The notes under the pieces were generated by a model. That model made no database searches, had not been told where the DNA came from, and saw only the letters and a list, made by a program, of their open reading frames with translations. A DNA stretch of 64,000 nucleotides from an uncultured Actinomycetota bacterium (lineage in GTDB: Bacteria; Actinomycetota; Actinomycetes; Mycobacteriales; Mycobacteriaceae), in assembly GCA_963799495.1 (NCBI GenBank), contig CAWCXH010000004.1, positions 67,232-131,231 on the forward strand, read 5' to 3'. This document shows positions 24,507 to 40,845 of this stretch, one piece after another; position 1 is the stretch's first letter; each line of letters starts with the position of its first letter. A program made the translations under genes and the position numbers.

Positions 24507-26501
24507 ATGGTTCTGCAGCAGACCGAATCCGCCGACGAGGCCGACGCCGCACCATTCAGCGTGACGGCCCCGGTGCCGTATGCGCCGAGCGGGTCATTGC
24601 GGAACCCGTTTCCCCCGATCGCCGACTACGCGTTCCTGTCGGACTGCGAAACCACCTGCCTGATCTCGTCGGCCGGCTCGGTGGAATGGATGTGCGTGCC
24701 TCGGCCCGACTCGCCCAGCGTGTTCGGGGCCATCCTGGATCGCGGCGGCGGGCACTTCCGGCTAGGCCCGTACGGCGTCTCGGTGCCGGCCGCGCGCCGC
24801 TACCTGCCTGGCAGCCTGATTCTGGAGACCACCTGGCAGACGCACACCGGCTGGCTGATCGTGCGCGACACCCTGGTGATGGGGCCGTGGCACGACATCG
24901 AGTCGCGGTCGCGAACCCATCGCCGCACCCCGATGGACTGGGATGCCGAACACATCCTGTTGCGCACCGTGCGATGCGTGAGCGGCACCGTCGAGCTCGT
25001 GATGAGCTGCGAGCCGTCGTTCGACTACCACCGCATCAGCGCCGGCTGGGAGTACTCGGCCAGCGCCTACGGCGAGGCGATCGCGCGGGCCAACCACAAT
25101 CCGGACTCGCATCCGACCGTGCGGCTGACGACCAACCTGCGCATCGGGTTGGAGGGCCGGGAGGCGCGGGCCCGGACCCGGATGAAGGAGGGCGACAACG
25201 TCTTCGTCGCGCTGAGCTGGTCGAAGCCATCGGCCCCGCAGACCTACGACGAGGCCACCGACAGGATGTGGCAGACCAGCGAGTGCTGGCGCCAGTGGAT
25301 CAACATCGGCGACTTCCCGGATCACCCGTGGCGGTCCTTCCTGCAACGCAGCGCGCTGACGTTGAAGGGCCTGACGTATTCGCCCACCGGCGCCCTGCTC
25401 GCGGCCAGCACTACGTCCCTGCCGGAAACCCCTCAGGGCGAGCGCAATTGGGACTACCGCTACGCCTGGGTGCGCGATTCGACCTTCGCGCTGTGGGGCC
25501 TATACACGCTGGGCCTGGACCGCGAGGCCGACGACTTCTTCTCGTTCATCGCCGACGTGTCCGGCGCCAACAACGGTGAACGCCACCCGCTGCAGGTGAT
25601 GTACGCCGTCGGAGGCGAACGCAGCCTCGTCGAGGAAGACCTACACCACCTGTCCGGCTACGACAACGCCCGCCCGGTACGGATCGGCAACGGCGCCTAC
25701 AACCAGCGTCAGCACGACATCTGGGGCGCCATGCTCGACTCGGTGTACTTGCACGCCAAGTCGCGGGAGCAGATGTCCGATCAGCTGTGGCCGGTGCTGA
25801 AACTTCAGGTGGAAGAGGCCATCAAGCACTGGAAGGAACCCGACCGCGGGATCTGGGAAGTGCGCGGCGAGCCCCAGCATTTCACCTCGTCGAAGGTGAT
25901 GTGCTGGGTGGCGCTGGACCGCGGCTCCAAGCTCGCCGAGCTACAGGGTGAGAAGAGCTACGCTCAGCAGTGGCGGGCCATCGCCGAGGAGATCAAGGCC
26001 GACATCCTGGCCAAGGCCGTCGACTCCCGCGGTGTGCTGACTCAGCGCTACGGCCACGACGCCCTGGATGCGTCGCTGCTGCTGGTGGTGCTGACCCGCT
26101 TCCTGCCGTCCGACGACCCACGGGTGCGCGCCACCGTGCTGGCGATCGCCGACGAGCTCACCGAGGACGGCCTCGTGCTGCGGTACCGCGTGGAGGAGAC
26201 CGACGACGGCCTGTCCGGCGAGGAGGGCACGTTCACCATCTGCTCGTTCTGGCTGGTGTCGGCGCTGGTGGAGATCGGCGAGGTGAGCCGGGCCAAGCAT
26301 CTGTGCGAACGGCTGCTGTCGTTCGCCAGCCCGCTGCATCTGTATGCCGAGGAGATAGAGCCCCGCACCGGCAGGCACCTGGGCAACTTCCCGCAGGCGT
26401 TCACCCACCTGGCGCTGATCAACGCGGTGGTGCACGTGATTCGCGCCGAGGACGAGTCGGACAGCTCCGGGGGGTTCCAGCCCGCGAACGCGCCGATGTA
26501 G
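24507..26501 (+). CDS. Glycoside hydrolase family 15 (trehalase-like, Rv2402-like)
   Basis: PIADYAFLSD, RNWDYRYAWVRDS, GIWEVRG, LGNFPQAFTH. Confidence 0.93.
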   Translation: MVLQQTESADEADAAPFSVTAPVPYAPSGSLRNPFPPIADYAFLSDCETTCLISSAGSVEWMCVPRPDSPSVFGAILDRGGGHFRLGPYGVSVPAARRYLPGSLILETTWQTHTGWLIVRDTLVMGPWHDIESRSRTHRRTPMDWDAEHILLRTVRCVSGTVELVMSCEPSFDYHRISAGWEYSASAYGEAIARANHNPDSHPTVRLTTNLRIGLEGREARARTRMKEGDNVFVALSWSKPSAPQTYDEATDRMWQTSECWRQWINIGDFPDHPWRSFLQRSALTLKGLTYSPTGALLAASTTSLPETPQGERNWDYRYAWVRDSTFALWGLYTLGLDREADDFFSFIADVSGANNGERHPLQVMYAVGGERSLVEEDLHHLSGYDNARPVRIGNGAYNQRQHDIWGAMLDSVYLHAKSREQMSDQLWPVLKLQVEEAIKHWKEPDRGIWEVRGEPQHFTSSKVMCWVALDRGSKLAELQGEKSYAQQWRAIAEEIKADILAKAVDSRGVLTQRYGHDALDASLLLVVLTRFLPSDDPRVRATVLAIADELTEDGLVLRYRVEETDDGLSGEEGTFTICSFWLVSALVEIGEVSRAKHLCERLLSFASPLHLYAEEIEPRTGRHLGNFPQAFTHLALINAVVHVIRAEDESDSSGGFQPANAPM

Positions 26502-26559
26502 GAGACGCGCGCCGAAGGATTACGCCTGCCCGCAACCCATCACCGTTTAGGTCACGCGG

Positions 26560-26724
26560 TCATTGTGGCGGACACGATGATGCGCTGCCGTCCTTCGGCT
26601 CTCCGTCATCGTTGTTGTCGAGCAGGTAGTTCGGCGGGTGGTGGTGCGGGTTTGGTCGTCCCGCGCAAGCGGGAGGTGCCCCAGTCGAGGTGGGGTGGCG
26701 GGATTCATTCTCAGAGACGCCGTC
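26560..26724 (-). pseudogene. C-terminal remnant of a DUF222/13E12-repeat HNH protein
   Basis: DGVS-E*IPPPHLDWG...HHPPNYLLDNNDDGEP across a stop and frameshifts. Confidence 0.7.
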
Positions 26725-26924
26725 AACAAACTAGTTTGAGCTGCTGACGCCACTGCAGGCGTAGCCCAGCTCTGGTTCGTGTTTGAAGACCGATCGCATC
26801 AGGGATTTCGCACCATTCCCCACCTCAGCGCAGTTGTGCGCATACGCTGCTGACTGGAACTTGGGGGACGGGCACTTGCATAACGAACAGTCGGTAGCCG
26901 GTTGCGCCGAGCGTCAAAACCTGG

Positions 26925-26947
26925 TGTGAGGACACGCCAGCCTCACA
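26925..26947. promoter_or_regulatory. Inverted repeat TGTGAGG-N9-CCTCACA, candidate operator
   Basis: Perfect 7-bp arms ending 12 nt before the hemerythrin ATG. Confidence 0.35.
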
Positions 26948-26959
26948 GTGGGGGTAAAG

Positions 26960-27610
26960 ATGCCGAGTGATCCGTTCGAGATGGCACTGGTTCACCGTGG
27001 CTTCCGCAGGGAGTTGCACAATGCGACCGGCCTCGTACGCGGTGTCACTGCCGGTGATATCAGGACCGCCGAAGTGGTTGGCGAGCATATCGACTTCATG
27101 ATGACGGCGCTGCATTATCATCACCAGGCCGAGGACCGGGTTGTTTGGCCGATATTGTCTACCCGGGTACCGAGCCGAGCCGCCGAGGTCAATCGAATGG
27201 AGGATGGCCACCGCGCCATCGCCGATACCTCTGAGCGAGTTCGGGCCACCGCGGTCCGGTGGGCGGAATCGGCTGACCCTTGGCTTGCCGGGCAACTCGT
27301 GTCACTCCTCCAGGAACTCGCCGGCCGCGTCGATGAGCACTTCGACGACGAGGAACGCAATGTCGTTCCGCTCATCGCCGAGCACCTCAGCCCCAAGGAG
27401 TGGCTGAAGCTCTTGGCGCACGGGTCGGCGTTCGTGAGGGCACACCCGAGGCGGGGACTCGCCCTGGGCGGAATCGTGCTCGACGGCGAGTCTGCCGAAA
27501 CTCGGGAGCGCTTCCTCAGCAATGTGCCATTGACCGCGCGGACGGCCTACAAGATCTTCGGCGATCGTATATACGCGGGCTACCGGGCACAGGTTTACGG
27601 GCCGGAGTAG
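26960..27610 (+). CDS. Hemerythrin/HHE-domain protein
   Basis: MALVHRGFRRE, HYHHQAED, MEDGH, HFDDEE pattern. Confidence 0.88.
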   Translation: MPSDPFEMALVHRGFRRELHNATGLVRGVTAGDIRTAEVVGEHIDFMMTALHYHHQAEDRVVWPILSTRVPSRAAEVNRMEDGHRAIADTSERVRATAVRWAESADPWLAGQLVSLLQELAGRVDEHFDDEERNVVPLIAEHLSPKEWLKLLAHGSAFVRAHPRRGLALGGIVLDGESAETRERFLSNVPLTARTAYKIFGDRIYAGYRAQVYGPE

Positions 27611-27799
27611 CTGCTCGGGTCTTGTTGTTTGGCGACGCCGGGACGTCGAGTTCTCGGGGCGGAATCCATTCGGTACGGCCGTCTTTTGCGGCGTTTTCGG
27701 GACCGTAAGACGGCGTGAACGGGCGTTCGGATAACGCCTGGTAGATGGGGGCTTAGCTAACCCAATAACGCAGTGCACCTGGTATTTTACGCCGTTTAG

Positions 27800-27839
27800 C
27801 GTACGCCTCCGGTATGGGGTAGGTACGGCTACGGTACGG
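27800..27839 (+). repeat. Four 11-bp-phased GGTACGG-like heptamers, putative integrase arm-type sites
   Basis: CGTACGC 27800, GGTATGG 27811, GGTACGG 27822, GGTACGG 27833. Confidence 0.6.
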
Positions 27840-27922
27840 CCCGAAAACGCCCCCAGTCGCCGGGGTAACGCCGGGGCCAGAGGTGGTCACTACCTTTACG
27901 CGGCGGCCTTGGCGGTAGGTCG

Positions 27923-28162
27923 GTGCTACCGCCCGAATTGAAGTTCCACGCTCTCCGACACACGTACGCGAGCCTCTGCGTCGCAGCGGGGATCAAGCCC
28001 GCGAAGCTCAGCGGGCGGATGGGACACGCCAACGTACGGACGACGCTGGACGTCTATGTCCACTTGTTCCCCGACGACGACGCGATCGACGACGTGGCTG
28101 CGCTCGGCGCACTGTCCGCGCCGAACGTTAGAGCGAACAACGTGATCCAGATGCACGGGTAG
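27923..28162 (+). pseudogene. Tyrosine integrase C-terminal fragment 1
   Basis: FHALRHTYAS...MGHAN...TTLDVYVHL (H-x-x-R, H/W, Tyr); N-terminal part absent. Confidence 0.88.
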
Positions 28163-28294
28163 ATCACATTGAGCGCCTTATCTGCCGGAGGCTCTGCTAT
28201 TCAGCACCGCCGGTCGTAGCGCCCGCCGCGCGGCAGGTCTGCAGACAATCGATACGGCGTCAAGGCCTTCCGCGATCTCACCTGGACAGCTCCG

Positions 28295-29773
28295 TCACGG
28301 ACACGCAGGGGCCTGCCGTCGCCTGATGACGGCGTCGCGCACCGCCAAGCGCCGGGCCTTACCCGCGTCGTCCCGCAGGGCGGTGTCGACGAACTCAACC
28401 GTGCGGGGCACCTTGTATGCCTCGATACGGTCAAGCAGGAATGCCCGCACGGAGTCCTCGTCGAGGCAGGCACCGTCGGCGGCCTGCACCAGCGCGTGGG
28501 GCACCTGGCCCAGATCCTCGTCCGGCAAGCCAACGACCAAGCAGGACAGCACATCCGGATGCGCGGACAGGGCGCCCTCGATTTCGGCGGGGTAAACGTT
28601 GCGGCCGCCGTTGGTGAACATGTCGACCCGGCGGTCGCTCAGGTAGAGGTATCCGTCCTCGTCGAAGTAGCCCAGATCTCCCAGCGAATCCCACCCGTCA
28701 TGGGTCTTCGCGGTCGCGCCGATGTAGCGGTAGGTCGGTGCGTCGCCCGGCGCAGGACGCAAGTAGATCTCCCCGATTTCGCCGGGCGCGCATTCCCGTC
28801 CGTCATCGTCGAGCACCTTCATCTCGCCCACGACCACTGGACCGACCGACCCGCGGTGCGTCAGCCACTGGTCGCCCGTGATGAACGTCATCGCCTGCAG
28901 TTCGGTACCGGTGTACAACTCACAGACGACCTCGGGGCCGACCAGCTCGATCCAGGCCTCTTTGATCGCTGGCGGGCACGGAGCGCCCATATGCCAGAAC
29001 ACACGTATCGACGACAGGTCGAAGGCTTCCTGACCGGCGCGGTAGACGGGAAGGAGCCGTTGCATGACCGTGGGCACCGTCGCCAGGAACGTCACCCGGT
29101 GCTCAGTTACCAGGCGGAGGAACTCGTTCGCCTCGAAATGTGGCATCAGGACTAGGTGGTGGCCCATCAGCAAACCCGCCGTCGTGAAGTTGAACCCGGT
29201 GCTGTGGCTCATCGGCACCGACACCAGCTGCACATCGCCTTCCTGAGCGCCAACGCTGGCTCCGGCTGCTGCGGGCCTCCGGCTGTCGCCGCCTGCCTCG
29301 ATCAGCTTGGGCCGGCCCGTGCTGCCACCCGATGCCATTGCCTTCCACGCCGGCGAGACCGCCTCCGGCAGCGCGGCATCGGAGAGTCCTGGATCCGGTG
29401 TGAAACCCACTGGCACACTTGGTGATATACCCCGCGGGTCCGCCTTGCCGACCATCAGTGCTCGCGGCCGTAACTCCCGGATCGCCTCGAACTCGGCGTC
29501 CCGCAGCCGCGCCGACAACGGCTGGGGAACCGCACCCAGCTTCCAGCAGGCAATGGTCGCTTGTAGGAACTCGATCGAGTTGGGTAGCACGATGGTGACG
29601 TAGTCGCCGACGGCTACTCCGCGCTGTGCGTAGGCGCGGGCGAGCTGGTTCGACGTCGCGTCCAATTCGGCGCGGCTGATGGTTCGGCCCTCGCAGGTGA
29701 TGGCCGGCTGGTCCGGAGCATGCTGCGCCAGCTGAGTGATCTGGGTGCCGATCGGGGGAATCTGATCAGGCAT
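28295..29773 (-). CDS. Acyl-CoA synthetase/AMP-binding enzyme (bile acid-CoA ligase-like)
   Basis: SGGSTGRPK, YTGTE, SLGDLG, GGRNVYPAEIE, YKVPR. Confidence 0.92.
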   Translation of the reverse strand: MPDQIPPIGTQITQLAQHAPDQPAITCEGRTISRAELDATSNQLARAYAQRGVAVGDYVTIVLPNSIEFLQATIACWKLGAVPQPLSARLRDAEFEAIRELRPRALMVGKADPRGISPSVPVGFTPDPGLSDAALPEAVSPAWKAMASGGSTGRPKLIEAGGDSRRPAAAGASVGAQEGDVQLVSVPMSHSTGFNFTTAGLLMGHHLVLMPHFEANEFLRLVTEHRVTFLATVPTVMQRLLPVYRAGQEAFDLSSIRVFWHMGAPCPPAIKEAWIELVGPEVVCELYTGTELQAMTFITGDQWLTHRGSVGPVVVGEMKVLDDDGRECAPGEIGEIYLRPAPGDAPTYRYIGATAKTHDGWDSLGDLGYFDEDGYLYLSDRRVDMFTNGGRNVYPAEIEGALSAHPDVLSCLVVGLPDEDLGQVPHALVQAADGACLDEDSVRAFLLDRIEAYKVPRTVEFVDTALRDDAGKARRLAVRDAVIRRRQAPACP

Positions 29774-30078
29774 AAGCGCGTGCCCTTCGGAAGATCTTGC
29801 GCGCGGATGTGTTGAGCCGTTCTTCGGTGACGCTGCGTCCTCTTCGGCGCAGGCAGCACGTCGTTGTGGATTGGCTCACCATACGACGCATTGCCGCCCG
29901 AGATGGCTAGTTATCCTTATCCTCCGTTGTTGCCTGGTGCCGCCCTCTGACCAACCGGGCCGAAACGATGGTCGCACCTGAAGCGGTTACTCGGTCAAGT
30001 CCACGCTGGGAAGCCACCAGCGGGCAGCGGGCTCCTGCACGGAAATCAGACGGTGGTTGAGCCGTGTCGGCAACTCGG

Positions 30079-30208
30079 GGTACGGGCGGGGTACGGGGTC
30101 GTGACATTCTGAGGGTTCGAACAACATCCGTCCTGGTACCTGACTTGGCTCACGTTCCGCGATTTGGAGTAGTTGCAGCGGTTTGACCTGTTGGTTTGCG
30201 GCCGTACC
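30079..30208 (+). repeat. GGTACGG x2 at 11-bp phase plus one inverted copy, putative att/arm region
   Basis: GGTACGG at 30079 and 30090; CCGTACC at 30202. Confidence 0.55.
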
Positions 30209-30228
30209 CGCCGAAAAGTGCGCACTAA

Positions 30229-30750
30229 ACTAAGAGCAAGACCAGCCGCAGGACCGTGCCACTCCCGCCCTGGCTAGCCGCGCGTATGGCCGACTACTTC
30301 GCGACCGAACACCAGCGTGCCAACGAGCCGACAGCGCCGCTATGGCCGCGACGGCTACACGGGAACCAGAACCGCAAGCCGCAGCTCAACTGGTCAGAAC
30401 CCCTAGACCTAAATGGCCTACAGAGCAAGATCGTGCGGCCCGCCCTGGAGGCAGTCGGCTTGCCCGCCAGCCGCCCCGCACGGCCAGCGACCGAAACCGA
30501 ACCCGCCCAGCCAGATGTAAAAGGTGTTCGGCTACACGACCTCCGGCACACCGCGGCAGTGCTGTGGCTGACGGCGGGTGTCCACTTCATCCAGGTCGCG
30601 AAGTGGCTGGGGCACAGTAGCTACGTGCTGACGTTGACCACCTACGCCGACTACATCCCCGAGCAGGAGACAGAGAACCCGCTGCCCGAACCTGTTGCCG
30701 CGGTGGCAGAGACGAACGTGGTACAGCTGTACCCGACCGAACAGGGCTAG
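30229..30750 (+). pseudogene. Tyrosine integrase C-terminal fragment 2
   Basis: After an in-frame TAA: TKSKTSRRTVPLP, RLHDLRHTAA, WLGHSS...TLTTYADY. Confidence 0.88.
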
Positions 30751-30899
30751 CTCAGCGGCGCTCGTCCGGGGCTGTCTGTCTTCCCAGCCGAGCCGGGGCC
30801 GCACTACGCCGTGCTCGACGCGAGCGACGACGTGGTACGCCTGGCCGAACACCGCGAACCGCTGACCGCCCAGGCGTGCGCCCGGATCAGCTAGGGGGC

Positions 30900-31211
30900 C
30901 TAGGGGCCGGCAGGCGGATATGCGGGATGAGTTGGCGGCGGCTGCTGCTCCTCGCCCAGGCCAATGCATTCACCGGTGTTGGCACCGGTGCAGGGGATAC
31001 CCTGGATCTCCGGCACGCTGCCCGGAGCGGGGGCTGGCATACACACCCCGGTGGCGGGGTCATGCACCTCACCCATTTGGCACTGGGCTACCGGTGCAGG
31101 CGTGCTGGTCGTTGGTACGGCGAAGACGGCGACCGCCGGGGCAGCCGCGATCGCGACCGCAAATCCACCGGCAAGGATTAGTCGTCGTGTTGGGTTCTGA
31201 AAGGTCGCCAT
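30900..31211 (-). CDS. Small secreted Cys-containing protein (mycobacterial Ibp1-like family)
   Basis: RRLILAGGFAVAIAAAPAVA signal, four Cys, EIQGIPCTGANTGECIGL motif. Confidence 0.7.
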   Translation of the reverse strand: MATFQNPTRRLILAGGFAVAIAAAPAVAVFAVPTTSTPAPVAQCQMGEVHDPATGVCMPAPAPGSVPEIQGIPCTGANTGECIGLGEEQQPPPTHPAYPPAGP

Positions 31212-31473
31212 CGTTACGCCTTTCCTGTAGTTAGGCTGGTTCGAAACGATCTTTCGAGGCCACACAAAGGGCCATAGCGCCTCGGCTCCCAGTACGGGTT
31301 AGAAGTGTTCCAACGCCGCACCTAATCATGGTCCGTTCAAACCGAGTGCATCACCTAAACGATCATTCCAAGGATCGGGCTGCACCGCCGCAACCCGCCC
31401 GAACGCGGGGGTATGGCCGGGGTGAAAGCCGCTCCGGCCCGCTAAACCGCCCGTGACCAGGCTAAACGCCGCG

Positions 31474-32583
31474 CTAGTGCTCTGTCTGTGATTTGATCTG
31501 GTGGAGGGTATCGCGGCCGCGTTGAACTTTGGCGATGATGTCGTCGGCGGTCGCTTTCCATACGAACGGTCGTGGGTCGATGTTCCAGTGTTCGGCCCAT
31601 GTGGTGATCGCGGCGCTGAGGTCGGTGACGCTCGTGAAAGTTCCGCGTCGCAATCGCTTGTCGGTGAGTTCCTTGAACCAGCGTTCGATCAGGTTCAGCC
31701 ACGAGCTTGAGGTCGGCGTGAAGTGCAGCCGCCAGCGGCGACGGTTGTTGTGCGCCAACCATTTCGCGATCTCGGGTGTCGAGTGCGCGGAGAGGTTGTC
31801 CAAGATGACGTGCACATCCAACTCAGCGGGGACGGCGGCGTCGATCTGCTTGAAGAACCGCAGCACGTCCGCGCCGGTGTGGCTCTTGCGCAGGTCAGTC
31901 AGGACTTCCCCGCTGGCAACGTTCATCGCAGCGAACAGGTCGACGGTACCGTTTCGCTTGTAGTCATGTGTCATCGTCCCGGCACGTCCAGGTTTCATCG
32001 GCAGCGACGGCTGGGTGCGGTCCAACGCCTGGCACTGGGTCTTTTCGTCGAAGCAGAACACCGCCGCGCGCGTCGGCGGATTGAGGTACAGGCCAACGAC
32101 ATCGACGAGTTTCTCCTCGAACCGCGGGTCGTTGCTGACCTTGAAGGTCTCGACCTTCCACGGCTTGAGGTTGTGGTCGGCCCAGATCTTGGCCACGGCA
32201 TCCTTGCCGATACCCAGCCGCGCCGCCAGAGTGCGGGTACTCCACTGCGTGGACCCATCGGCCGGACGCTCCTTGTGCGTCAGCCGCAGCACCTCCTCGA
32301 CCGTGCCCTTGGGCAGGCTCGGCTTGCGCCCACGACCTTTGGCGATCTTGCCCACGCCCGCCGGGCCGTGCTCGGCGAAGCGAGAACGCCAGCGCCGCAC
32401 CGTGTCCGAGTCCACCGCACAGCGGCGGGCGATCTCCTCGTTAGCCACCCCGGCGCAGGCCAACAACAGCCCCCGCGCCTGCACCACCTGCCGATGCGGC
32501 AGCGACGTCGACGACGCCATCCGCTCCAATACCGCTCGCTGCTCATCGGTGGCCGGCAACGCCGCTGCAGTCATAACAGGCAT
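31474..32583 (-). CDS. IS630 transposase
   Basis: N-terminal HTH, WSTRTLA, DDE motifs FCFDEKT, VILDNLSAH, WLNLIERWF; the TAG stop coincides with the terminal CTAG. Confidence 0.93.
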   Translation of the reverse strand: MPVMTAAALPATDEQRAVLERMASSTSLPHRQVVQARGLLLACAGVANEEIARRCAVDSDTVRRWRSRFAEHGPAGVGKIAKGRGRKPSLPKGTVEEVLRLTHKERPADGSTQWSTRTLAARLGIGKDAVAKIWADHNLKPWKVETFKVSNDPRFEEKLVDVVGLYLNPPTRAAVFCFDEKTQCQALDRTQPSLPMKPGRAGTMTHDYKRNGTVDLFAAMNVASGEVLTDLRKSHTGADVLRFFKQIDAAVPAELDVHVILDNLSAHSTPEIAKWLAHNNRRRWRLHFTPTSSSWLNLIERWFKELTDKRLRRGTFTSVTDLSAAITTWAEHWNIDPRPFVWKATADDIIAKVQRGRDTLHQIKSQTEH

Positions 32584-32623
32584 ACTACCAAACTACCGAA
32601 CTATTTCACAGACACTACGCTAG
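31474..32623 (-). mobile_element. IS630-family insertion sequence
   Basis: CTAG at both ends (31474-77, 32620-23); imperfect TIRs sharing TGTCTGTGA 5 nt inside each CTAG; single transposase ORF. Confidence 0.88.
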
Positions 32624-32811
32624 GCACCGGCGTCCGTAACTTTTCGGGTTTTCCAGCCGCCGGGGTTTGACCAGCCAGTTGTCCGGGCCGCAGGCCAGGG
32701 TGAGCTCGTCGATATTGGTCTGGCCGTCGTCGGCCCAGGGGTTTCGGCATGATGCACCTCGCACCAATACGCCGGCACCGTGCAGCCCGGTCGGGTGCAG
32801 CCGCGGTCCTT
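32624..32811 (-). pseudogene. HNH portion of a DUF222/13E12-repeat protein, frameshifted
   Basis: KDRGCTRPGCTVPAYWCEVHH / WADDGQTNIDELTLACGPDN / GGWKTRK in shifting frames. Confidence 0.85.
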
Positions 32812-32996
32812 GGAATGACTGTTTAGCTAAGGCCCGTTGGGAGATCGCATCCACTGTCATTGCGGGACAGTGTGATTGGCGGCGCCGCTGACTTGGCTAG
32901 GCTATCAGCAGGCGAATCATCCTGCGGCAAAGGAGATCCGTTGACCGTGTCGACCGCATCCCGGAGCCACTGCTTGACGAGGGACCTCACCGGCCA

Positions 32997-34100
32997 TTAT
33001 GCCGGTATTTGACCACTTACACGGCGCGAGAACGTGATTCGGCTGATCACTGAGTCCACCGCGGATCGCAGTCCGGGCACGAATGCCTCCGACTGCATCG
33101 TGCAGCAGGCATGTCCCGCGTCGACGGTCACGGTGTGCGCGTCGGGAATCTGGCGGGCTACCCACCGCTGGTGCCGCGGCGGGATAACCCCGTCACGCAA
33201 CGGTATTAGCACCGAGGTCGGCACATCAATATCAGCGATCCAGCCCGTGGAATCAAACCGGGTGATTTCGGCCAGCGCCCGCATCATCGCCCCGGCGCTG
33301 GTCGCCCGAAATTGCCCAAGCGCCCACAGCCGGTCATCCCTCACGGTGTCGTCGGTGCCGGACACCCCCACCGCCGCGGGCCGCCCAGGCTGCGGACCGA
33401 ACGCCTCCAGCAGCGCGGCGAAGACACCGGTCGCGAGGCGCTCATGGGCGGCACGGCCGAACGTCGCGGCCGCCGCGCACAGCACCAACCCGTCGACCCG
33501 GTCCCGATGGCGCCGCCACACCTGCTGCGCCACCAGTGATCCCATCGAAAATCCGACCGGGATGAACGTTTCGACGCCAAGCTCGTCGGCCAAGGCGGCG
33601 ACGTCGTCGGCGCAGTCCTTCAGCAGGAACCGTGGGGAGGCGATGCCCGAGCCGTGCCAGCGCTGATCGAACACCACCACACGCCCGAAACGGCGCAACA
33701 TCTCCAATGACGGATACCACGTCAGCAGCCCCGTACACGCCAGCGAGTGCAGCAACACAAATGTCGGACCCCCGGCAACTGGGCCGGAATCCACAACAAA
33801 CGTGCTGCCCCGACCGGAAAGCTCCACGACCCGGCCGTGCGGAAGGCGGCCAACCGGAGCCACGGCAGGCAGGTTGACCGACCGGAGCGCCAACGGCAGG
33901 CGCAGCGGGCTCCGAAGAGCGTCGATCACCCAGTACGGATGGGGAAAACCCGATGGGGTTATCGGTGCGGCGACGCAACCGGTTTCACGCAGATGCAGGC
34001 GAGACACGCTGCCGAGCACCATGCTCGGTCGCATGCCGCCCATCGCACCCAGTGACTGGGCAACTGCGCGCGAGGCGAGCCGCACAACGTTATCGCTCAT
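32997..34100 (-). CDS. Alpha/beta hydrolase
   Basis: LLHSLACT, FDQRWHG, GFSMG nucleophile elbow, DGVIP, C-terminal GH. Confidence 0.88.
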   Translation of the reverse strand: MSDNVVRLASRAVAQSLGAMGGMRPSMVLGSVSRLHLRETGCVAAPITPSGFPHPYWVIDALRSPLRLPLALRSVNLPAVAPVGRLPHGRVVELSGRGSTFVVDSGPVAGGPTFVLLHSLACTGLLTWYPSLEMLRRFGRVVVFDQRWHGSGIASPRFLLKDCADDVAALADELGVETFIPVGFSMGSLVAQQVWRRHRDRVDGLVLCAAAATFGRAAHERLATGVFAALLEAFGPQPGRPAAVGVSGTDDTVRDDRLWALGQFRATSAGAMMRALAEITRFDSTGWIADIDVPTSVLIPLRDGVIPPRHQRWVARQIPDAHTVTVDAGHACCTMQSEAFVPGLRSAVDSVISRITFSRRVSGQIPA

Positions 34101-34597
34101 CCGCGGTGCCCCTGAACTCTGAGTGCAGTTCCGCGTCGCCGTCCACGCGTGTCCAACCCGACGCGAACCCGCGCCGAAGATTCCACCGCCAGCTCAACGC
34201 GGCAGGACGGCGCGTCGTTGGCACGCCCGGGTGGATCGGGCATGATCCTTCGACCCAGCATCCCTGGGCGCTCGGTCTTCGGTCCGTCAGCGCCTGAACC
34301 GCTTTCGCGGCTGAAATGACTCAACAACATTCGGGACATACGGCCATGCTCATCGCTCACGCAGCCACGCAGCTAGAGTGGACCGCTACTCGCTTTTCGT
34401 CGACCCAGTACCCAAAGGGCCTGCAACGCTACCTCTCCAAGAATCCAGATCGTCGAAGCCAATGCCGAGAAGTCTCCCTACGAGTGGGCCAGGAGAACGA
34501 CCGCCGCCACAGCGGTGGCGCCCGCGCCACAAACCAGCCGCCGGGTATGAACAAGTACAAACTGTCCAGTCGCGGGCGGCCTGTATCGAACTGTCGC

Positions 34598-35745
34598 CTA
34601 AGGCAGGGTCGCCCGCGCTGTCGTCAGCGGTGTGGTTGGCGCGCGCGGTGTAGCACCTGCCGGTCTCGTTGTGGGAGTGGCTGTTTGAGTCGTGGAGTGT
34701 GTGTCGACCGCTGGGGCCGATGGTCGTGAGCCACCCACCTGGATACCGATGAATATGGTCGACGCGATCAACATCATCGCCAAGATGGCGGGAACCACCG
34801 TTGCCAGACGTAACATCGGCGGCTTCGTCGCGGCCGCGGGTGCGGAGCGTGTTGCGGTCGGCGCCAGCCGAGTGATCGCCGCCGCGGTGGCGCAACGGCT
34901 GCGCGGCGTGCCGATGTCACCTTGAAGCGCGGCGACGAAATCCCGGCAGCGGTCAAACCGATCCCCCGGGTCCTTGGCCAGCGCTCGCGACAGTGCCGCA
35001 TCGAGGTCGGCCAGTTCCGGCCGCACATCGCCGGGCAGCGGCGGCGCGGTGTTGAGATGACCGCTGATCACCGCGGCGGGGTTGGAGCGCGGGAACGGCG
35101 GCGCACCGGTCAGAAGATGAAACGCCGTCGCCGCCAACGCATATTGGTCGGCGCGCCCATCGATCGGTGCCTCCATCGTCAGCTGCTCGGGGGCGGTGTA
35201 ATCGACCGTGCCCAGCGTCATGTCGGTCGCGGTCAGCCCGCACGCGTCGTCGATGCGTCGTGCGATGCCGAAGTCGCTCAACAGCGTGCGCCGCCGGCCC
35301 GACTCTTCGTTGGCGAGCAGGATGTTGGCCGGTTTGACGTCGCGATGCAGCACGCCGCGATCGTGCGCATAGTCCAGCGTCTCGGCCACCGCCCCGATGA
35401 TCTCCAGCACTCGCCACGCGGCATGCCGGCCGGGTAGCGCTCGCGCAGCAGCCGCGCGCAGTCCGCGCCATCGACGTAGTCCATCGAGATCCACAACCGC
35501 CCGGCGTGCTCCCCGCGGTCGTGCACCCCGACGATGTGCGGATGCCACAGCGCGGCCGCGAGATCCGCCTCCCGGGTGAAACGGGCACGGTACTCCTGGT
35601 CGCCGGACACCTCGACCGGCAGGATCTTCAGCGCCTCGTGCCGCGGCAGCCTGGGGTGCTCAGCCAGATACACCTCACCCATGCCTCCCGACCCCAGCGG
35701 GTGCACAATCTTGAAGCCCGCAAACACCGCACCGTTGGTCAGCGG
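34598..35745 (-). pseudogene. Ser/Thr protein kinase (PknF-like, one TM), frameshifted near 35410 and lacking its own start codon
   Basis: [20 protein letters not shown] in one frame; [21 protein letters not shown] in another; GAG-TGC-TGG lacks one G. Confidence 0.85.
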
Positions 35746-35913
35746 TGCGGCCGCACCGCGGCCCTGGGTCGAAGCGGAGGGCACGTTGCTGCTGCCCGAC
35801 GCGTGGATCACCGCCTGGAAGAGGGACCTGACGTCGAGTTGGCCGGGCGATCCGGGGCAGACCTGCACCACATGCATACCGCCGCGGAGTACCGCCGCGT
35901 GCTGCGAGCACCG

Positions 35914-35975
35914 GCCGGCGTTGTTCACCAGGATGTAGACCCCGGCGTGCCCGTCGGCCACCTTGACAATCTTTC
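35914..35975 (-). pseudogene. Short-chain dehydrogenase fragment in frame upstream of the kinase
   Basis: [20 protein letters not shown] resembles the SDR GVDILVNNAG motif. Confidence 0.5.
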
Positions 35976-36163
35976 GGCGCGACGAGGCGCACAGCCGTCC
36001 GGCCAGCCCGCGAGTAGCACCGTTGACAGCCGCGACGCCCCCGCGACCATGGGACAGGGTCACCACGACTTCTCCTGAAATGGATTCTCGGTACGGACGA
36101 GGAATTCCATTGCCTCGCCAGCGTTTTCGAATTGATCGACGAACATGAGACGTACCTAGCGGC

Positions 36164-36956
36164 TCAGGCGAACCGCTTCGACAGGAACCGCGTCACCGCA
36201 TCGCGGAGATCGCCGCTGCGCGGCACCGCGCCGGACATCCAGTAGACGCCGTGAATCAGCCCGTCGAAGCGGATGCAATCGGTTTCGACGCCGGAATCGG
36301 CGAGTCGCTTCGCGTACGCCTCCGCCTCGTCGCGCGACACCTCGCACTCGGTGGTCAGCACCAACGCGGGCGGCAGGCCGGCCAGCGAGCCGGCCTTGGC
36401 CGGCGCGGCGAGCGCATTCCGAGTGTCTGCTAGTGACCCCAGGTACTGCTCCCAGAACCAGTCCAGCCCGGTGGCGGTGATCACGTACCCCTCCCCGAAG
36501 AGTTTCCGCGACTCCAGCCGCGCGGTCGGATCGACGACGGGATAGACGAGAACCTGCGCCACCAGACGCGGGCCGCCCGCATCACGCGCGCGTAGCGCAG
36601 CCACCGCCGCAAGGCTGCCGCCGGCACTGTCGCCCATGACGGCGATGCGCGCCGGATCGCCCCCGAAATCCGCGGCATGATCGGCGACCCACCGCAGCGC
36701 GGCGAACGTGTCGTCGGTGGCCGCCGGGAACTTGTGCTCCGGGGCGAGGCGGTAGCCCGCCGCGACGACGATCGCACCAACGTCGTTCGCGAGCGCACGC
36801 GCCGGCTCGTCCGACCACGGAAAGCCCGCCGCCGACGAACCCGCCGCCGTGGAAGTACACGACAACGGGTAGCGCCCCTTCACCCTCCGGTATGTAGATG
36901 CGCAACGGTTGTGCCCCAACGGGTCCCGGGTACGTCCCGTCGATCACGCGGGACAC
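36164..36956 (-). pseudogene. HSL-family esterase/lipase, frameshifted near 36812
   Basis: YFHGGGF in one frame; YRLAPEHKFPAA, GDSAGG, FDGLIHG in another. Confidence 0.85.
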
Positions 36957-37065
36957 GGCTGCGGCGGCGGGGGAAATTGACGGAGGGCGGGCACCGCAGG
37001 TTTCGCCGCGGTCGGATAAGCGTTACTGAAGTCAAGGTCCGCCACGGGTGAGACGGAGGCATCCG

Positions 37066-37102
37066 CATCTACCGGCGCCATCTACCGGCGCCATCTACCG
37101 GC
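37066..37102 (+). repeat. 13-bp tandem repeat CATCTACCGGCGC x2.85
   Basis: Directly visible units at 37066, 37079 and 37092. Confidence 0.9.
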
Positions 37103-37435
37103 TCTTTAGGTGATGCACCCTCTGCTGGGATCGGTGGGGCCATCAGTCTCGGCGCCCGGCGAGCGGCCCATCGGCGCGTCGGCTTGCGTCGGTGGTGGCT
37201 TGAAATACGTCAGAGACAGATGTTCGTGAGGCGCGGGAGAGACGGCGGCATGAGTAGGGCGCGCTTTACGCGCTTCATAAACAGGTAGTCGGCTACTCGT
37301 GAGAAGAGTTGTCATCGCGATGAGGCTTATGGCATCGCGGCCAGCACCGCCGCGACCACCGCTAAGGAGCACGTCATGAGCACCACCTACAACCCCAGCC
37401 GACCACCGACACATCAACATTTGAAAGGCAACACA

Positions 37436-37744
37436 GTGAAGCCCTTCGCGACCGTCGCAATCTCAGTCGGGGCATTGGCCTCTGCCGCTTTGGGTCTGGC
37501 CGGCGCTGCCGGTGCAGCTCCGTCGGGCGCTCCGACCGTAGATCAGACGGTCAGCCAGCTGAAGGCCGGCGGTTACGAGGTCATCCTGAACAAGGTCGGC
37601 ACGGCTTCACTGAATCAGTGCGCCATCAGTGCGGTCCGACCCGGCCAGACCTACTCCCGAACCGATTCCGGTGTACCGGGGGCCGGCGATGACTTGGTCA
37701 CCACCGTGACGAACAAGACGGTCTACGTCGACGTCAAGTGCTGA
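37436..37744 (+). CDS. Small secreted mycobacterial protein (alternative in-frame start 37376)
   Basis: GAAAGG RBS, signal peptide ending AGAA, LKAGGYEVILNKVG...C....C-terminal VYVDVKC. Confidence 0.8.
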   Translation: MKPFATVAISVGALASAALGLAGAAGAAPSGAPTVDQTVSQLKAGGYEVILNKVGTASLNQCAISAVRPGQTYSRTDSGVPGAGDDLVTTVTNKTVYVDVKC

Positions 37745-37771
37745 CAACCCAAGCTATACCGATCACCGGAC

Positions 37772-38200
37772 TGGTAAAACGCGTTGTGCTTGTTGCCCCT
37801 GCAGGTTGAGCGGGATGTCGAGGGTGGCGATCAACTCGTCCTTGAGAAACCAGGCTCGGGGTGAACCACCCACGACACAACAGCACGCTCGGCCATCCAC
37901 CGGGTCAGAACAGCCTCGCCGGCTGCGAAGGTGCGCCGGCCGCCCGAGCCGACACGGCGCAGTTCGAGGCCGAGCTCATCGGCGAGTAGGACGCCGAGCG
38001 TCTTGCGCAGCGTCGAGCCTTCCGCATTCGCGCTGCCGCCGCCGAAGTGACATCTGATGCGCTTGCGCAAATCTTGGCTGCTCGGTCGCTTCCCGTTCGC
38101 AGGCGGCGGACTCGGGCTGATCCCGACGTAGAGCAACGTCGAGCCGTCACCCTGTTCGCAGCCCGAAACGTCGATAGCCGCAGGCAGCCTGTGGCATCGA
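37772..38200 (-). pseudogene. GIY-YIG-like nuclease remnant with several frameshifts
   Basis: LLYVGISP, LRKRIRCH, AEGSTLRKTLG, then WFLKDELIATLDIPLNLQG and NKHNAFY in other frames. Confidence 0.7.
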
Positions 38201-38257
38201 CAAACCCGGCCGCCGAGAACCACTGGAACCAAACTGACACAAGTGATTACAGGGGAA

Positions 38258-38982
38258 TCAAGCAATCTTGTCGAGCATCAGATTGGCGACGTCGACGGCG
38301 TCCTCGGCACCACGCGCTGCCATCGGCACCGAGGTCCGTGACCTCCACGTCCACGACGCAGTCCGCCGCCACGCCCAGGGCCCGCTGAATCGACGACGGA
38401 CCTCGGCCCGCCGGCGTCGTGCGTCACGACGGCCGAGACGATGCGGCCGTCGACAACCACGTCGCTGATCTTGCTGGACCCGTCGCCGCCGCGCTGGTGC
38501 AGAACCATCGTCGTGCCGTTGCACTGTCGCCACTTGGCGGCCGCCGTCGCGAAGAACTCCTCGGCATCACCGGCGGTGGCAAGCCTGACCACACCGAAGA
38601 AACCCGAGAACGCCGGCCCACGCAGGTCGCCGCCGGTCCATGAGCGGCTGGCGACGGACCGGACCGGGCTCGCCGCGTAGGTGATGTTCTGCAGGCGGTA
38701 GGTGGCGCTGACACAGTCGGGGGGCGATGCCTCGGATTCGCCAATCCCGCGAAGCAATGTGTCGGCTCCGCCCTCGACGAGTTGGCCCATGAATCCGTCG
38801 GGCCCGATCCTCAGCGTGGTGGACAGCTCCTCGCCGGTGGGCAGGAGCTGGTTGAGTGACGACGTCGGCTTGTCACCGGCCGATGTGGTGGCCATGCCGT
38901 CGACGGTGGCCGTGCAGGCGGCCAGCAGTGCGCACGCGCTCGCGGCGGCAAGAGTTGGTCGTCGCGCGCGCATCCGGTTCAC
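38258..38982 (-). pseudogene. lppR: LppR-like sensor-domain (PknH-C-like) lipoprotein with two 3' frameshifts
   Basis: Lipobox LAAC; C-terminal motifs IQRALGVAADCVVDVEV and AVDVANLMLDKI lie in two further frames; downstream of lepA. Confidence 0.72.
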
Positions 38983-40845
38983 CTACTTCTTGGCCTTGTC
39001 GCCGCCGGCGTCGGTGGACAGCGCCGCGACGAACGCCTCCTGCGGCACGTCGACCCGGCCAATGGTCTTCATCCGCTTCTTGCCTTCCTTCTGCTTCTCC
39101 AGCAGCTTGCGCTTGCGGGTGATATCGCCGCCGTAGCACTTCGATAGCACGTCCTTGCGCAGCGCGCGGATGTTTTCGCGAGCAATGATCTTCGAACCGA
39201 TCGCGGCCTGTATCGGCACCTCGAACTGCTGGCGCGGGATGAGCTCCTTGAGTTTGGTGGTCATCTTGTTGCCGTAGGCGGCCGCGGAATCCTTGTGCAC
39301 GATCGCGCTGAACGCGTCAACGGCCTCGCCCTGCAACAGGATGTCGACCTTGACCAGCGACGCCTCCTGTTCGCCCGCCTCTTCATAGTCCAGGCTGGCG
39401 TAGCCGCGGGTACGCGACTTCAACGAGTCGAAGAAGTCAAAGATGATCTCCCCCAACGGCATTGTGTAGCGCAGCTCCACCCGCTCGGGCGACAGGTAGT
39501 CCATGCCGCCCAGTTCGCCCCGACGGGACTGGCACAGCTCCATGATGGTGCCGATGAATTCGCTCGGCGAGATGATCGTGGTTTTGACGACGGGTTCGTA
39601 GACGGTGCGGATTTTGCCTTCCGGCCAGTCCGACGGGTTCGTGACGACGATCTCTTCGGCGGCGGCACCCGGCTTGCCTTCCAACACCACGCGGTACACC
39701 ACGTTCGGCGAGGTGGAGATGAGGTCGAGGTCGAACTCGCGCTCCAGCCGCTCGCGGGTGATCTCCATGTGCAGCAGGCCCAGGAACCCGCAGCGGAAAC
39801 CGAAGCCCAGCGCCACCGACGTCTCGGGCTCGTAGACCAGGGCGGCGTCGTTGAGCTGCAGCTTGTCCAGCGCATCGCGCAGGTTGGGATAGTCGGAGCC
39901 GTCGACCGGATACAGCCCGGAGTACACCATCGGCTTGGGTTCGCGGTATCCGGTCAGCGCCTGCGTGGCGCCGTGGCGCGCGGTGGTGACGGTGTCTCCG
40001 ACCTTCGATTGGCGGACGTCCTTCACACCGGTGATGAGGTAACCCACCTCGCCCACACCTAGGCCGGCGGCCGGTTTGGGTTCGGGTGAAACGATGCCGA
40101 CTTCCAGCAGCTCGTGGGTGGCGCCGGTGGACATCATCTTGATCCGCTCGCGTGGGTTGATCGCGCCGTCGACCACCCGGACGTAGGTGACCACGCCGCG
40201 GTAGATGTCGTAGACCGAGTCGAAGATCATGGCCCGGGCGGGGGCGTCGGCGTTGCCCTGCGGAGGCGGCACCTCGCGCACCACATGGTCGAGCAGCTCC
40301 GCCACGCCCTCCCCTGTCTTTCCGGACACCCGTAACACGTCGCCGGCTTCGCAGCCGATGATGTGGGCGATTTCGGCTGCGTAGCGGTCCGGGTCCGCAG
40401 CCGGCAGGTCGATCTTGTTCAGCACCGGGATGATGGCGAGGTCGCGGTCCAGCGCCAGATACAGGTTGGCCAGCGTCTGCGCCTCGATGCCCTGGGCGGC
40501 GTCGACCAGCAGCACCGCGCCCTCACAGGCCTCCAGCGCGCGGGACACCTCGTAGGTGAAGTCGACGTGACCGGGGGTGTCGATCAGGTGCAGGACGTAG
40601 TTTTCGTCACCGACTTTCCACGGCAGCCGGACGTTCTGGGCCTTGATGGTGATCCCGCGTTCCCGCTCGATGTCCATCCGATCCAGGTACTGCGCGCGCA
40701 TCGACCGTTCGTCGACGACACCGGTGAGCTGCAGCATCCGGTCCGCCAGCGTCGACTTTCCGTGGTCGATGTGGGCGATGATGCAGAAGTTTCGAATCTG
40801 CGCCGGCGCGGTGAAGGTCTGGTCGGCGAGGCTGCTGATGGGAAT
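38983..40845 (-). CDS. lepA: Translation factor LepA/EF4, start probably non-canonical
   Basis: [50 protein letters not shown]. Confidence 0.97.

What the first reader, a model, noticed from the sequence alone, without database searches (positions are those of the whole stretch)
27800..30750. Repeated module: phased GGTACGG array followed by a headless tyrosine integrase, bracketing a cargo gene
Seen twice within 3 kb in the same orientation: 11-bp-phased GGTACGG heptamers (four copies at 27800-39; two at 30079-96 plus an inverted copy at 30202), then about 85-130 bp later the 3' end of an integrase with intact catalytic H-x-x-R/H/Y and an NV(V/I)Q tail. The two stubs are divergent, so this is not a recent duplication. 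An intact acyl-CoA ligase lies between the modules. Known: tyrosine integrases bind tandem arm-type sites spaced about one helical turn apart. Inference: either elements of one family repeatedly insert into each other's integrase genes, building a cassette-like array, or these are non-autonomous derivatives retaining att arms that a full-length integrase elsewhere could mobilise in trans.
Basis: partly seen in the sequence, partly recalled or inferred. Interest (0 to 1): 0.62.

Follow-up and report, generated by a model that had tools for sequence, protein, structure and literature searches.

The report
Decayed integrative-element ends, not a cassette system
The phased GGTACGG repeats are conserved attachment-site arm repeats of a family of small capsid-carrying mycobacterial integrative elements, and the two headless integrases are deletion remnants of two such elements stacked at one insertion hotspot, which is ordinary mobile-element decay.

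Summary
The sequence facts hold: 11-bp-phased GGTACGG copies lie at 27800-39 and 30079-96, and two divergent 3' integrase stubs lie at 27921-28162 and 30232-50.

In intact relatives the order is partial tRNA, P arm with 3-5 phased GGTACGG, cargo, a 473-476-aa tyrosine integrase, a short P' arm, then the intact tRNA. The cargo includes a major head protein and a primase. The big array therefore sits at the end far from int.

Array 1 is the P arm of an element integrated into a REP13E12/DUF222-HNH gene, at the core TTTTCGGGT. Array 2 matches the int-proximal P' segment of a tRNA-Gly element. It lies downstream of stub 1 and the acyl-CoA ligase, so the ligase sits in the int-to-att cargo slot.

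The stubs break at different residues (about 393 and 312). No N-terminal halves remain. The arm-stub junction was found in none of 400 other genomes.

The region is a 12-kb strain-specific island made of two stacked elements with internal deletions and an IS630 insertion. Insertion into integrase genes is not supported. Mobilisation in trans is unlikely now. Arm-type or Xis binding is inferred, not shown. The scan also noted the split DUF222 gene before, on this same stretch (e1-5276095).

The parts
26590..26725 (-). REP13E12/DUF222-HNH gene 3' fragment A (from about 'DGRTEWIPPPHLD' to the stop), directly after the trehalase gene
Evidence: Local alignment to the intact own-genome copy C2:137724-139118.
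26948..27610 (+). Hemerythrin-domain gene lying between the two REP13E12 3' fragments (island cargo)
   Evidence: Pfam PF01814, E 1.6e-16. The island is absent from the 3 closest relatives.
27612..27701 (-). REP13E12 3' fragment B (codons ~420-445, frameshifted), ending in the common core GTTTTCGGG (27693-27701). This is the displaced target end (attR side).
   Evidence: The same junction is seen in L053, L054 and L055.
27702..27905 (+). P-type attachment arm. It holds the conserved box AACGCCTGGTAGA...AGCTAACCCAA, the GGTACGG array, then CGCCGGGGTAA/CGCCGGGG repeats (27854-27877).
   Evidence: Homologous to arms in own C10 and C21, in L053 (70% over 233 bp), and in L040, L017 and others.
27800..27839 (+). 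Array 1: four 11-bp-phased copies (CGTACGC, GGTATGG, GGTACGG, GGTACGG)
27921..28162 (+). Integrase stub 1: the last ~83 codons of a G053-type (tRNA-Gly element) integrase
   Evidence: 85% DNA and 80-81% aa identity to the G053 int C-terminus (residues 393-476). Pfam PF00589 positions 126-169.
28295..29773 (-). Acyl-CoA ligase (AMP-binding plus AMP-binding_C), in the cargo slot between int and the P' arm
   Evidence: Pfam E 1.9e-52. The position is equivalent to the 255-aa and 427-aa genes of G053 and G203.
30001..30100 (+). P'-like segment containing array 2 (GGTACGG at 30079 and 30090)
   Evidence: 30/32 and 23/26 collinear matches to G053 12797-12869, which lies 44 bp from the intact tRNA-Gly. 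G132 has the same pair.
30202..30208 (-). Inverted GGTACGG copy in the context GGTACGGccgcaaacc, resembling type-B arms. Probably a fragment of another arm.
   Evidence: The comparison with the C2a arm was made by eye only.
30232..30750 (+). Integrase stub 2: the last ~170 codons of a REP13E12-targeting integrase
   Evidence: 75-81% aa identity to the integrases of L053, L054 and L055. Equivalent to residues 317-450 of a 472-aa relative. The breakpoint is shown.
30900..31265 (-). Small secreted Cys-containing protein in the int-to-att slot of the outer element
   Evidence: ORF. A small secreted protein occupies the same slot in L055 and in own C11, but it is not homologous.
31390..31473 (+). 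P' arm of the REP13E12-targeting element (contains GGTATGG and CCGGGGTGAAAGCCG)
   Evidence: 73% identity to L055 9472-9556, which abuts the REP13E12 junction there.
31474..32623 (-). IS630-family insertion sequence (transposase 31474-32583), splitting the P' arm from the core
   Evidence: Pfam DDE_3 and HTH domains. The flanks are contiguous in L055. Terminal inverted repeats were read.
32624..32860 (-). attL side: element-derived REP-like bases, the core TTTTCGGGT (32633-32644), then REP13E12 codons ~364-422 (frameshifted and truncated upstream)

Best explanation
Window 26.5-38.3 kb is a strain-specific island seeded at a REP13E12 (DUF222-HNH) gene.

Small capsid-carrying integrative elements of one family have the following order. 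It runs from a displaced target end, through a P arm with 3-5 GGTACGG repeats at 11-bp phase, then cargo, then a ~475-aa tyrosine integrase, then a short P' arm with a 2-copy pair, to the core and the target. These are candidate PICIs (phage-inducible chromosomal islands), phiRv-like.

Elements of this family integrated site-specifically at the core TTTTCGGGT, near codon 421 of the REP13E12 gene, and stacked up there.

Later deletions removed the interiors. What remains, in order, is:
- the outermost P arm (array 1);
- the 3' end of a G053-type integrase (stub 1);
- that unit's int-to-att cargo (the acyl-CoA ligase);
- that unit's P' pair (array 2);
- the 3' third of the REP13E12-specific integrase (stub 2);
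- a small secreted-protein gene;
- the outer P' arm;
- an IS630 insertion;
- the core.

Shown here: homology of each piece to the matching piece of intact elements, the geometry, the integration core, absence of the island from relatives, and the uniqueness of the junction.

Inferred: the phased repeats are protein-binding sites that shape the recombination complex. GG(T/G)AC(G/C)G-type pairs occur in both the P and P' arms, which is the pattern of integrase arm-type sites. The longer P-arm-only run could instead, or also, be an excisionase (Xis/RDF) platform. The stubs lack Arg-I and the Lys hairpin and are inactive.
For: - Arms. 12 of 30 sampled genus hits to the exact pair are homologous arms. 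Eight of them lie 85-150 bp from a 41-47-nt partial tRNA: Gly-ccc x6, Gly-tcc and Leu-taa. None has an integrase within 1.5 kb.
- Intact elements G053, G203, G120 and own C10 have the array next to the partial tRNA and int next to the intact tRNA, 3.6-10 kb apart. They carry a major head protein (phrog_3990, E 5.6e-95), a primase-polymerase and a small serine recombinase. PMC10654092 describes such int-plus-capsid regions as candidate mycobacterial PICIs, with Int-Y types at tRNA genes.
- Stub 1 is 85% identical in DNA to the G053 int 3' end, and arm 1 matches G053's P arm. Relative to G053 the window lacks about 11 kb.
- Array 2 matches G053's P' region, and G132 has the same pair.
- REP13E12 targeting. 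L053, L054, L055 and own C23 show the same split gene, with stub-2-type integrases and a shared core.
- IS630 splits sequence that is contiguous in L055.
- The island is absent from the 3 closest relatives.
- No match spans the arm-stub junction in 400 genomes.
- C-terminal-only remnants are common and start anywhere from residue 285 to 406.
- G137 shows two tandem units of int stub, cargo and partial tRNA-Gly.
Against: - No recognisable core (tRNA half or REP13E12 core) lies between array 2 and stub 2 (30101-30231). The tandem junction is therefore inferred, not seen.
- Arm 1 sits at a REP13E12 junction, the stub-2 type of target, but stub 1 next to it is of the tRNA-Gly type. Which integrase arm 1 originally served is therefore ambiguous.
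- L054 and L055 arms lack the GTACGG array although their integrase N-termini resemble L053's. That weakens the reading that the array is the arm-type site for that integrase.
- Several arms are followed by an oddly oriented partial tRNA (L053, G239, L032, L040), which the simple model does not explain.
- Protein binding is untested.
Confidence: 0.8

Rival explanations
1. The remnants are non-autonomous, CIME-like mini-elements (P arm, int 3' end, cargo, P' arm). A full-length integrase of the family, for example the one on own contig C10, could still excise and move them, carrying the ligase as cargo.
For: - Both kinds of arm are retained around the ligase.
- The same genome encodes a full-length G053-type integrase, 57-60% identical.
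- G239 and G332 share a 1.56-kb unit of arm plus stub at 97% identity, with unrelated flanks.
- The arrangement 'arm, ~100 bp, stub' recurs there.
Against: - The inner unit lacks a core at its right end.
- IS630 displaces the outer P' arm 1.15 kb from its core.
- The C10 integrase serves a tRNA-Gly(tcc) core, not TTTTCGGGT.
- No full-length stub-2-type integrase is in the genome.
- The junction is unique among 400 genomes.
- The G239/G332 unit includes target-gene sequence, and its stub is frameshifted.
Confidence: 0.1
2. Elements of the family use a site inside the integrase gene as attB. They repeatedly insert into each other's integrases, and each insertion leaves a displaced 3' stub next to the incomer's arm.
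For: - tblastn start points of several C-terminal remnants cluster at residues 391-398 (window, G175, G177, G239/G332).
- The window's stub 2 and L054 break within about 15 bp of each other.
- Phage Mx8, a distant relative by tblastn, is known from my memory to carry attP inside intP.
Against: - The two window stubs break about 80 codons apart.
- No N-terminal halves exist in the window.
- The sequences next to the breaks are unrelated.
- A displaced target end should face an inverted array. That is the geometry seen at tRNA targets, but here array and stub are co-oriented.
- On closer look other remnants start at 364, 373 and 387, and overall from 285 to 406.
- Intact integrated elements keep a full-length int.
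Confidence: 0.03
3. The GGTACGG pairs are chance or coding-sequence by-products with no role. Array 2 reads R-Q-L-G-V-R-A-G-Y in an open frame shared with G053.
For: - 18 of 30 sampled genus hits lie in ordinary coding sequence.
- The array 2 region is homologous to G053 in a frame with a 27-bp (9-codon) indel.
- The reversed-pattern control gives about 40 hits against 74 (my count).
Against: - For array 1 the motif, its phase and its copy number are conserved across arms that are otherwise 65-80% identical, in more than 15 loci.
- The array has expanded to 6-7 copies in G239.
- The P' pair recurs at the same distance from the tRNA in G053 and G132. A different motif at the same phase and place occurs in G203 and G120.
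- The G053 frame has no Pfam match and runs through the tRNA gene.
Confidence: 0.05

Closest known systems
Lambda-type attP architecture (arm-type sites P1, P2 and P'1-3; Xis sites X1, X1.5 and X2 at about one helical turn), and mycobacteriophage L5 attP at tRNA-Gly (from my knowledge)
   Same: The int 3' end abuts a short P' arm. The core follows, then a longer P arm carrying direct repeats phased at ~11 bp. In the integrated state the long arm lies at the end far from int. The target is the anticodon-loop-to-3'-end block of a tRNA (41-47 nt duplicated).
   Different: The repeat sequence GG(T/G)AC(G/C)G is not one I know from L5 or lambda. The integrases are under 32% identical to any deposited phage integrase. 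Binding is untested.
phiRv1/phiRv2 and candidate mycobacterial PICIs (PMC10654092; phiRv1 in REP13E12, PMC9317374)
   Same: Intact relatives are 5-13 kb, with an integrase, a major capsid protein and a primase, integrated at tRNA genes. REP13E12 serves as an integration target.
   Different: Here REP13E12 is targeted by tyrosine integrases, whereas phiRv1 uses a serine integrase. The window holds only remnants, with no capsid and no full integrase.
Tandem accretion and CIMEs (cis-mobilisable elements) of the ICESt1/ICESt3 family (from my knowledge)
   Same: Related elements stack at one att site. Internal deletion leaves att-bearing remnants with cargo.
   Different: CIMEs keep both functional att sites and have a cognate resident integrase. 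Here one core is missing, one arm is displaced by an IS, and no cognate integrase was found.
Integrase fragments next to tRNA genes in decayed prophages and genomic islands
   Same: Only the 3' end of int survives, next to the att site or target. This is common in the genus: at least 20 such remnants in 250 genomes.
   Different: Here the target is a repeat-family protein gene rather than a tRNA, and two remnants are stacked.

Membership tests
Attachment-site arm of a lambda-type tyrosine-integrase element | Lies within ~250 bp of the crossover core, at an element end | tested here: met
   Array 1 starts 99 bp from the REP13E12 core. Homologous arrays lie 85-150 bp from partial tRNA halves in 8 of 12 arms.
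Attachment-site arm of a lambda-type tyrosine-integrase element | The same repeat motif is present in both the P and P' arms (arm-type sites) | tested here: inconclusive
   GGTACGG-type pairs occur in P' of G053, G132 and the window. GGGACC-type pairs occur in both P and P' of G203 and G120. The long GGTACGG run is P-arm only in G203 and G120, and is absent from the L054 and L055 arms.
Attachment-site arm of a lambda-type tyrosine-integrase element | The cognate integrase has an extra N-terminal arm-binding domain | tested here: inconclusive
   Intact integrases are 473-476 aa, with about 100 residues ahead of the SAM-like domain. Pfam names only PF14659 (weakly) and PF00589.
Attachment-site arm of a lambda-type tyrosine-integrase element | Demonstrated binding by integrase or excisionase | not testable with these tools
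   Needs EMSA or footprinting.
Mycobacterial PICI-like / phiRv-like element | An integrase plus a major capsid gene in a small, site-specifically integrated element | tested here: not met
   Met by relatives G053, G203, G120, own C10 and C23. The window has no capsid or primase homologue and only two integrase fragments, so it is a remnant and not a member.
CIME (cis-mobilisable element) | Two intact att sites flanking the element, and a cognate integrase available in trans | tested here: not met
   The left and right cores are present. However, the P' arm is separated from its core by IS630. The inner unit has no core. The best resident integrases are 57-60% identical (tRNA-Gly type), and those of the stub-2 type are truncated.
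Nested insertion into integrase genes / cassette array | A shared crossover point in int, with the 5' half of int on the other side of the insert | tested here: not met
   The breakpoints are at residue ~393 versus ~312. No 5' halves are present. The sequences next to the breaks are unrelated.

The most novel reading that the evidence does not exclude
GG(T/G)AC(G/C)G repeats at 11-bp phase are the shared arm 'code' of a large, uncharacterised family of mycobacterial capsid-carrying satellites. Their tyrosine integrases have diversified to tRNA-Gly, tRNA-Met, tRNA-Leu and the REP13E12 gene. REP13E12 is thus a landing pad shared by serine-integrase (phiRv1) and tyrosine-integrase satellites. Stacked, gutted copies that keep both arms can still be moved in trans and so spread metabolic cargo such as the ligase.
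Probability: 0.12. Interest if true: 0.5.

Novelty: new member of a known kind. Interest (0 to 1): 0.27.

Why it matters
For this locus the result is mostly tidying. It explains a puzzling repeat as ordinary decay of stacked integrative elements, and it corrects the module boundaries.

Two by-products may be useful:
- A conserved, easily searched arm signature. It marks the int-distal end of candidate mycobacterial PICIs, which is usually the hard end to find.
- Evidence from five loci that tyrosine-integrase elements integrate at one defined core (TTTTCGGGT) in REP13E12 genes. That repeat family is already known as the phiRv1 target. New integration-proficient vectors could in principle be built from intact members.

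Tried and rejected
- tRNA scan of the window: none found. Short-blast of both arms against all 44 genome tRNAs gave only chance 8-11-mers.
- Rfam on 26000-39500 found nothing relevant.
- Internal repeat search of 26400-33100 found no flanking direct repeats beyond the short core.
- Full-length integrases at ~40% identity (G018, G023) have no GGTACGG arrays nearby, so they were uninformative about arm sites.
- Phage database search: no integrase above 32% identity.
- I first read array 2 as the upstream arm of stub 2. I rejected that after finding the G053 P' homology.
- I considered a fixed breakpoint at residue 398, an Mx8-like attP inside int. I rejected it because intact integrated elements keep a full int, and other remnants start at 364, 373 and 387.
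- I considered that G053's 'GIY-YIG-like' open frame makes array 2 plain coding sequence. It has no Pfam match, runs through the tRNA, and is not like the window's own GIY-YIG_2 protein.
- A literature search for the phiRv1 attB core sequence, to compare the positions, found no accessible text.
Full report
OBSERVATION

The window has exact GGTACGG at 27822 and 27833. GGTATGG (27811) and CGTACGC (27800) are in the same 11-bp phase. There are exact copies at 30079 and 30090 and an inverted copy at 30202. The pair pattern is over-represented: 5 hits with up to 2 mismatches against 0.54 expected. In the 6.2-Mb genome, 11 bp is the only enriched spacing between neighbouring copies.

ORFs 27923-28162 and 30256-30750 match only the last ~45 positions of Pfam Phage_integrase. 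tblastn with full-length relatives places them at residues ~395-472 and ~317-450 of a 472-aa protein. It finds no N-terminal remains anywhere in the window. The ligase at 28295-29773 (minus strand) looks intact.

WHAT THE ARRAY IS

The same genome has further 11-bp pairs in non-coding DNA on contigs C10, C21 and C2/C32. On C10 and C21 they lie about 100 bp from a partial tRNA 3' half, and they share with the window the box AACGCCTGGTAGA...AGCTAACCCAA.

A scan of 401 genomes of the genus gave 74 exact pairs. By my count of the table, the reversed control gave about 40. Of the 30 loci returned, 12 are clearly homologous arms and the rest lie in ordinary coding sequence. Eight of the 12 have a 41-47-nt partial tRNA 85-150 bp upstream: Gly-ccc x6, Gly-tcc and Leu-taa. 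None has an integrase or an intact tRNA within 1.5 kb. Arms typically carry 3-4 in-phase copies. One arm has 6-7.

INTACT ELEMENTS

Walking inward from three arms gave complete elements in G053, G203 and G120. A fourth is on own contig C10. Their order is:
- a partial tRNA;
- a P arm with the array;
- cargo;
- a 473-476-aa tyrosine integrase reading outward;
- 80-1300 bp;
- the intact tRNA.

The cargo includes a major head protein (phrog_3990, E 5.6e-95), a primase-polymerase and a small serine recombinase. Int-plus-capsid regions of this kind are described as candidate mycobacterial PICIs. The Int-Y types sit at tRNA genes, and the phiRv elements belong with them (PMC10654092). The main array therefore lies at the end far from int, as the lambda P arm does in a prophage (my knowledge).

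PARSING THE WINDOW

Stub 1 is 85% identical in DNA to the 3' end of the G053 integrase, and arm 1 aligns to the G053 P arm. Relative to G053, about 11 kb is missing between them.

Array 2 with its left flank (30001-30100) matches G053 12797-12869 (30/32 and 23/26, collinear). That is the segment 44 bp from the intact tRNA on the int side. G132 has the same pair at the same place. G203 and G120 have a GGGACC pair there, at the same phase, and the same motif recurs in their P arms. Array 2 is therefore a P' pair belonging downstream of stub 1. The ligase occupies the int-to-att cargo slot, which holds other genes in G053 and G203.

THE TARGET

Window 27612-27701 and 32641-32860 are adjoining parts of one minus-strand REP13E12/DUF222-HNH gene. 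A further 3' fragment lies at 26590-26725.

Close relatives of stub 2 (75-81% aa) sit in REP13E12 genes split at the same point in the MAG loci L053, L054 and L055 and on own contig C23. In L053 and L055 the integrase is full-length apart from a frameshift. Left and right junctions share the core (G)TTTTCGGGT.

The L053 arm is homologous to arm 1 over 233 bp. Window 31390-31473 and 32624 onward are contiguous in L055, so an IS630 element (31474-32623) has split the outer P' arm from the core. phiRv1, a serine-integrase element, is known to lie in REP13E12 (PMC9317374).

THE ISLAND

In the three closest relatives the trehalase gene is followed within 0.8-1.6 kb by the lepA region, which in the window starts at 38982. 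So 26503 to about 38270 is strain-specific. The island also holds a hemerythrin gene, an alpha/beta hydrolase, a frameshifted Ser/Thr kinase, an esterase and a GIY-YIG_2 gene.

A DNA query spanning arm 1 and stub 1 hit arms (query 5-182) or integrase ends (205-476) in 69 other genomes, but no match spanned the junction.

C-terminal-only integrase remnants are common in the genus. They start anywhere from residue 285 to 406, and no N-terminal-only remnants were seen. That fits survival of the att-proximal end.

G137 shows two tandem units of int stub, 1.3-1.6 kb, and a partial tRNA-Gly. This is a direct parallel for stacking followed by gutting.

'Arm, ~100 bp, stub' recurs in G239 and G332, with frameshifted stubs. 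Array and stub are co-oriented there, which is the geometry of an internal deletion.

An apparent cluster of remnant starts at residues 391-398 dissolves partly on closer inspection (364, 373, 387). I leave it as unexplained.

MECHANISM

Shown: homology, geometry, the integration core and the decay. Inferred: the phased repeats are binding sites that build the recombination complex. Pairs in both arms argue for integrase arm-type sites. The long P-arm-only run, and its absence from L054 and L055 despite similar integrase N-termini, leave an excisionase platform open. The stubs lack Arg-I and the Lys hairpin and cannot be active.

VERDICT

This is ordinary decay of stacked PICI-like elements at a REP13E12 hotspot. 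The att-arm idea is right. The module boundaries and the 'insertion into integrase genes' model are wrong. Trans-mobilisation is unlikely at present.

That the organism is a Mycobacterium is an inference. It rests on the record titles of related loci and on trehalase-lppR-lepA synteny (my knowledge).

Noticed in passing
window 27693-27701 and 32633-32644; L053, L054, L055; own C23 (L003): REP13E12/DUF222-HNH genes are split at one defined core, (G)TTTTCGGGT near codon 421 of 464, by elements carrying tyrosine integrases. This is seen in five loci. The element side mimics the displaced REP 3' bases. phiRv1, a serine integrase element, is the known user of REP13E12.
   Followed up: partly
window 26503-38270: A 12-kb strain-specific island lies between the trehalase gene and the lppR/lepA region. 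It is absent from the three closest relatives. It holds a hemerythrin gene, a ligase, two hydrolases, a frameshifted Ser/Thr kinase (34598-36066, minus strand) and a GIY-YIG_2 gene (37831-38265, minus strand).
   Followed up: partly
window 26590-26725 and 27612-27701: Two separate 3' fragments of the REP13E12 gene lie here, with the hemerythrin gene between them. This suggests an earlier insertion event at a slightly different point (about 10-15 bp downstream in the gene).
   Followed up: no
L049/L050 (G053), L047 (G203), L052 (G120), own C10:45-54 kb: Intact 5-13-kb elements at tRNA-Gly carry a major head protein, a primase-polymerase, a small serine recombinase and a 473-476-aa tyrosine integrase. 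In own C10 the head gene is in pieces, with a group II intron reverse transcriptase nearby.
   Followed up: partly
L082 (G239:C4, reverse strand 5600-5880), L053 400-500, L032, L040: Arms are followed on their inner side by a co-oriented partial tRNA: Leu-taa positions ~33-74, or Arg-tct. In L053 an inverted 3' end of a different integrase comes after that. These head-to-head att fragments are not explained by a simple attR.
   Followed up: no
L082 (G239) and L083 (G332): A 1.56-kb unit is 97% identical between two genomes, while both flanks are unrelated. The unit consists of the 3' part of a limonene-epoxide-hydrolase-like gene, a P arm, a frameshifted integrase stub, and 0.9 kb more.
   Followed up: partly
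own genome C2:~41-49 kb and C32:~163-171 kb: Two contigs carry near-identical 8-kb stretches, including an arm with a GGTACGG pair. This could be a true duplication or assembly redundancy (contamination estimate 4%).
   Followed up: no
window 31348-31377 and 32804-32833: A 30-nt inverted repeat (80% complementary) brackets the P' arm, IS630 and the REP13E12 fragment. The right copy lies where the REP13E12 homology stops.
   Followed up: no
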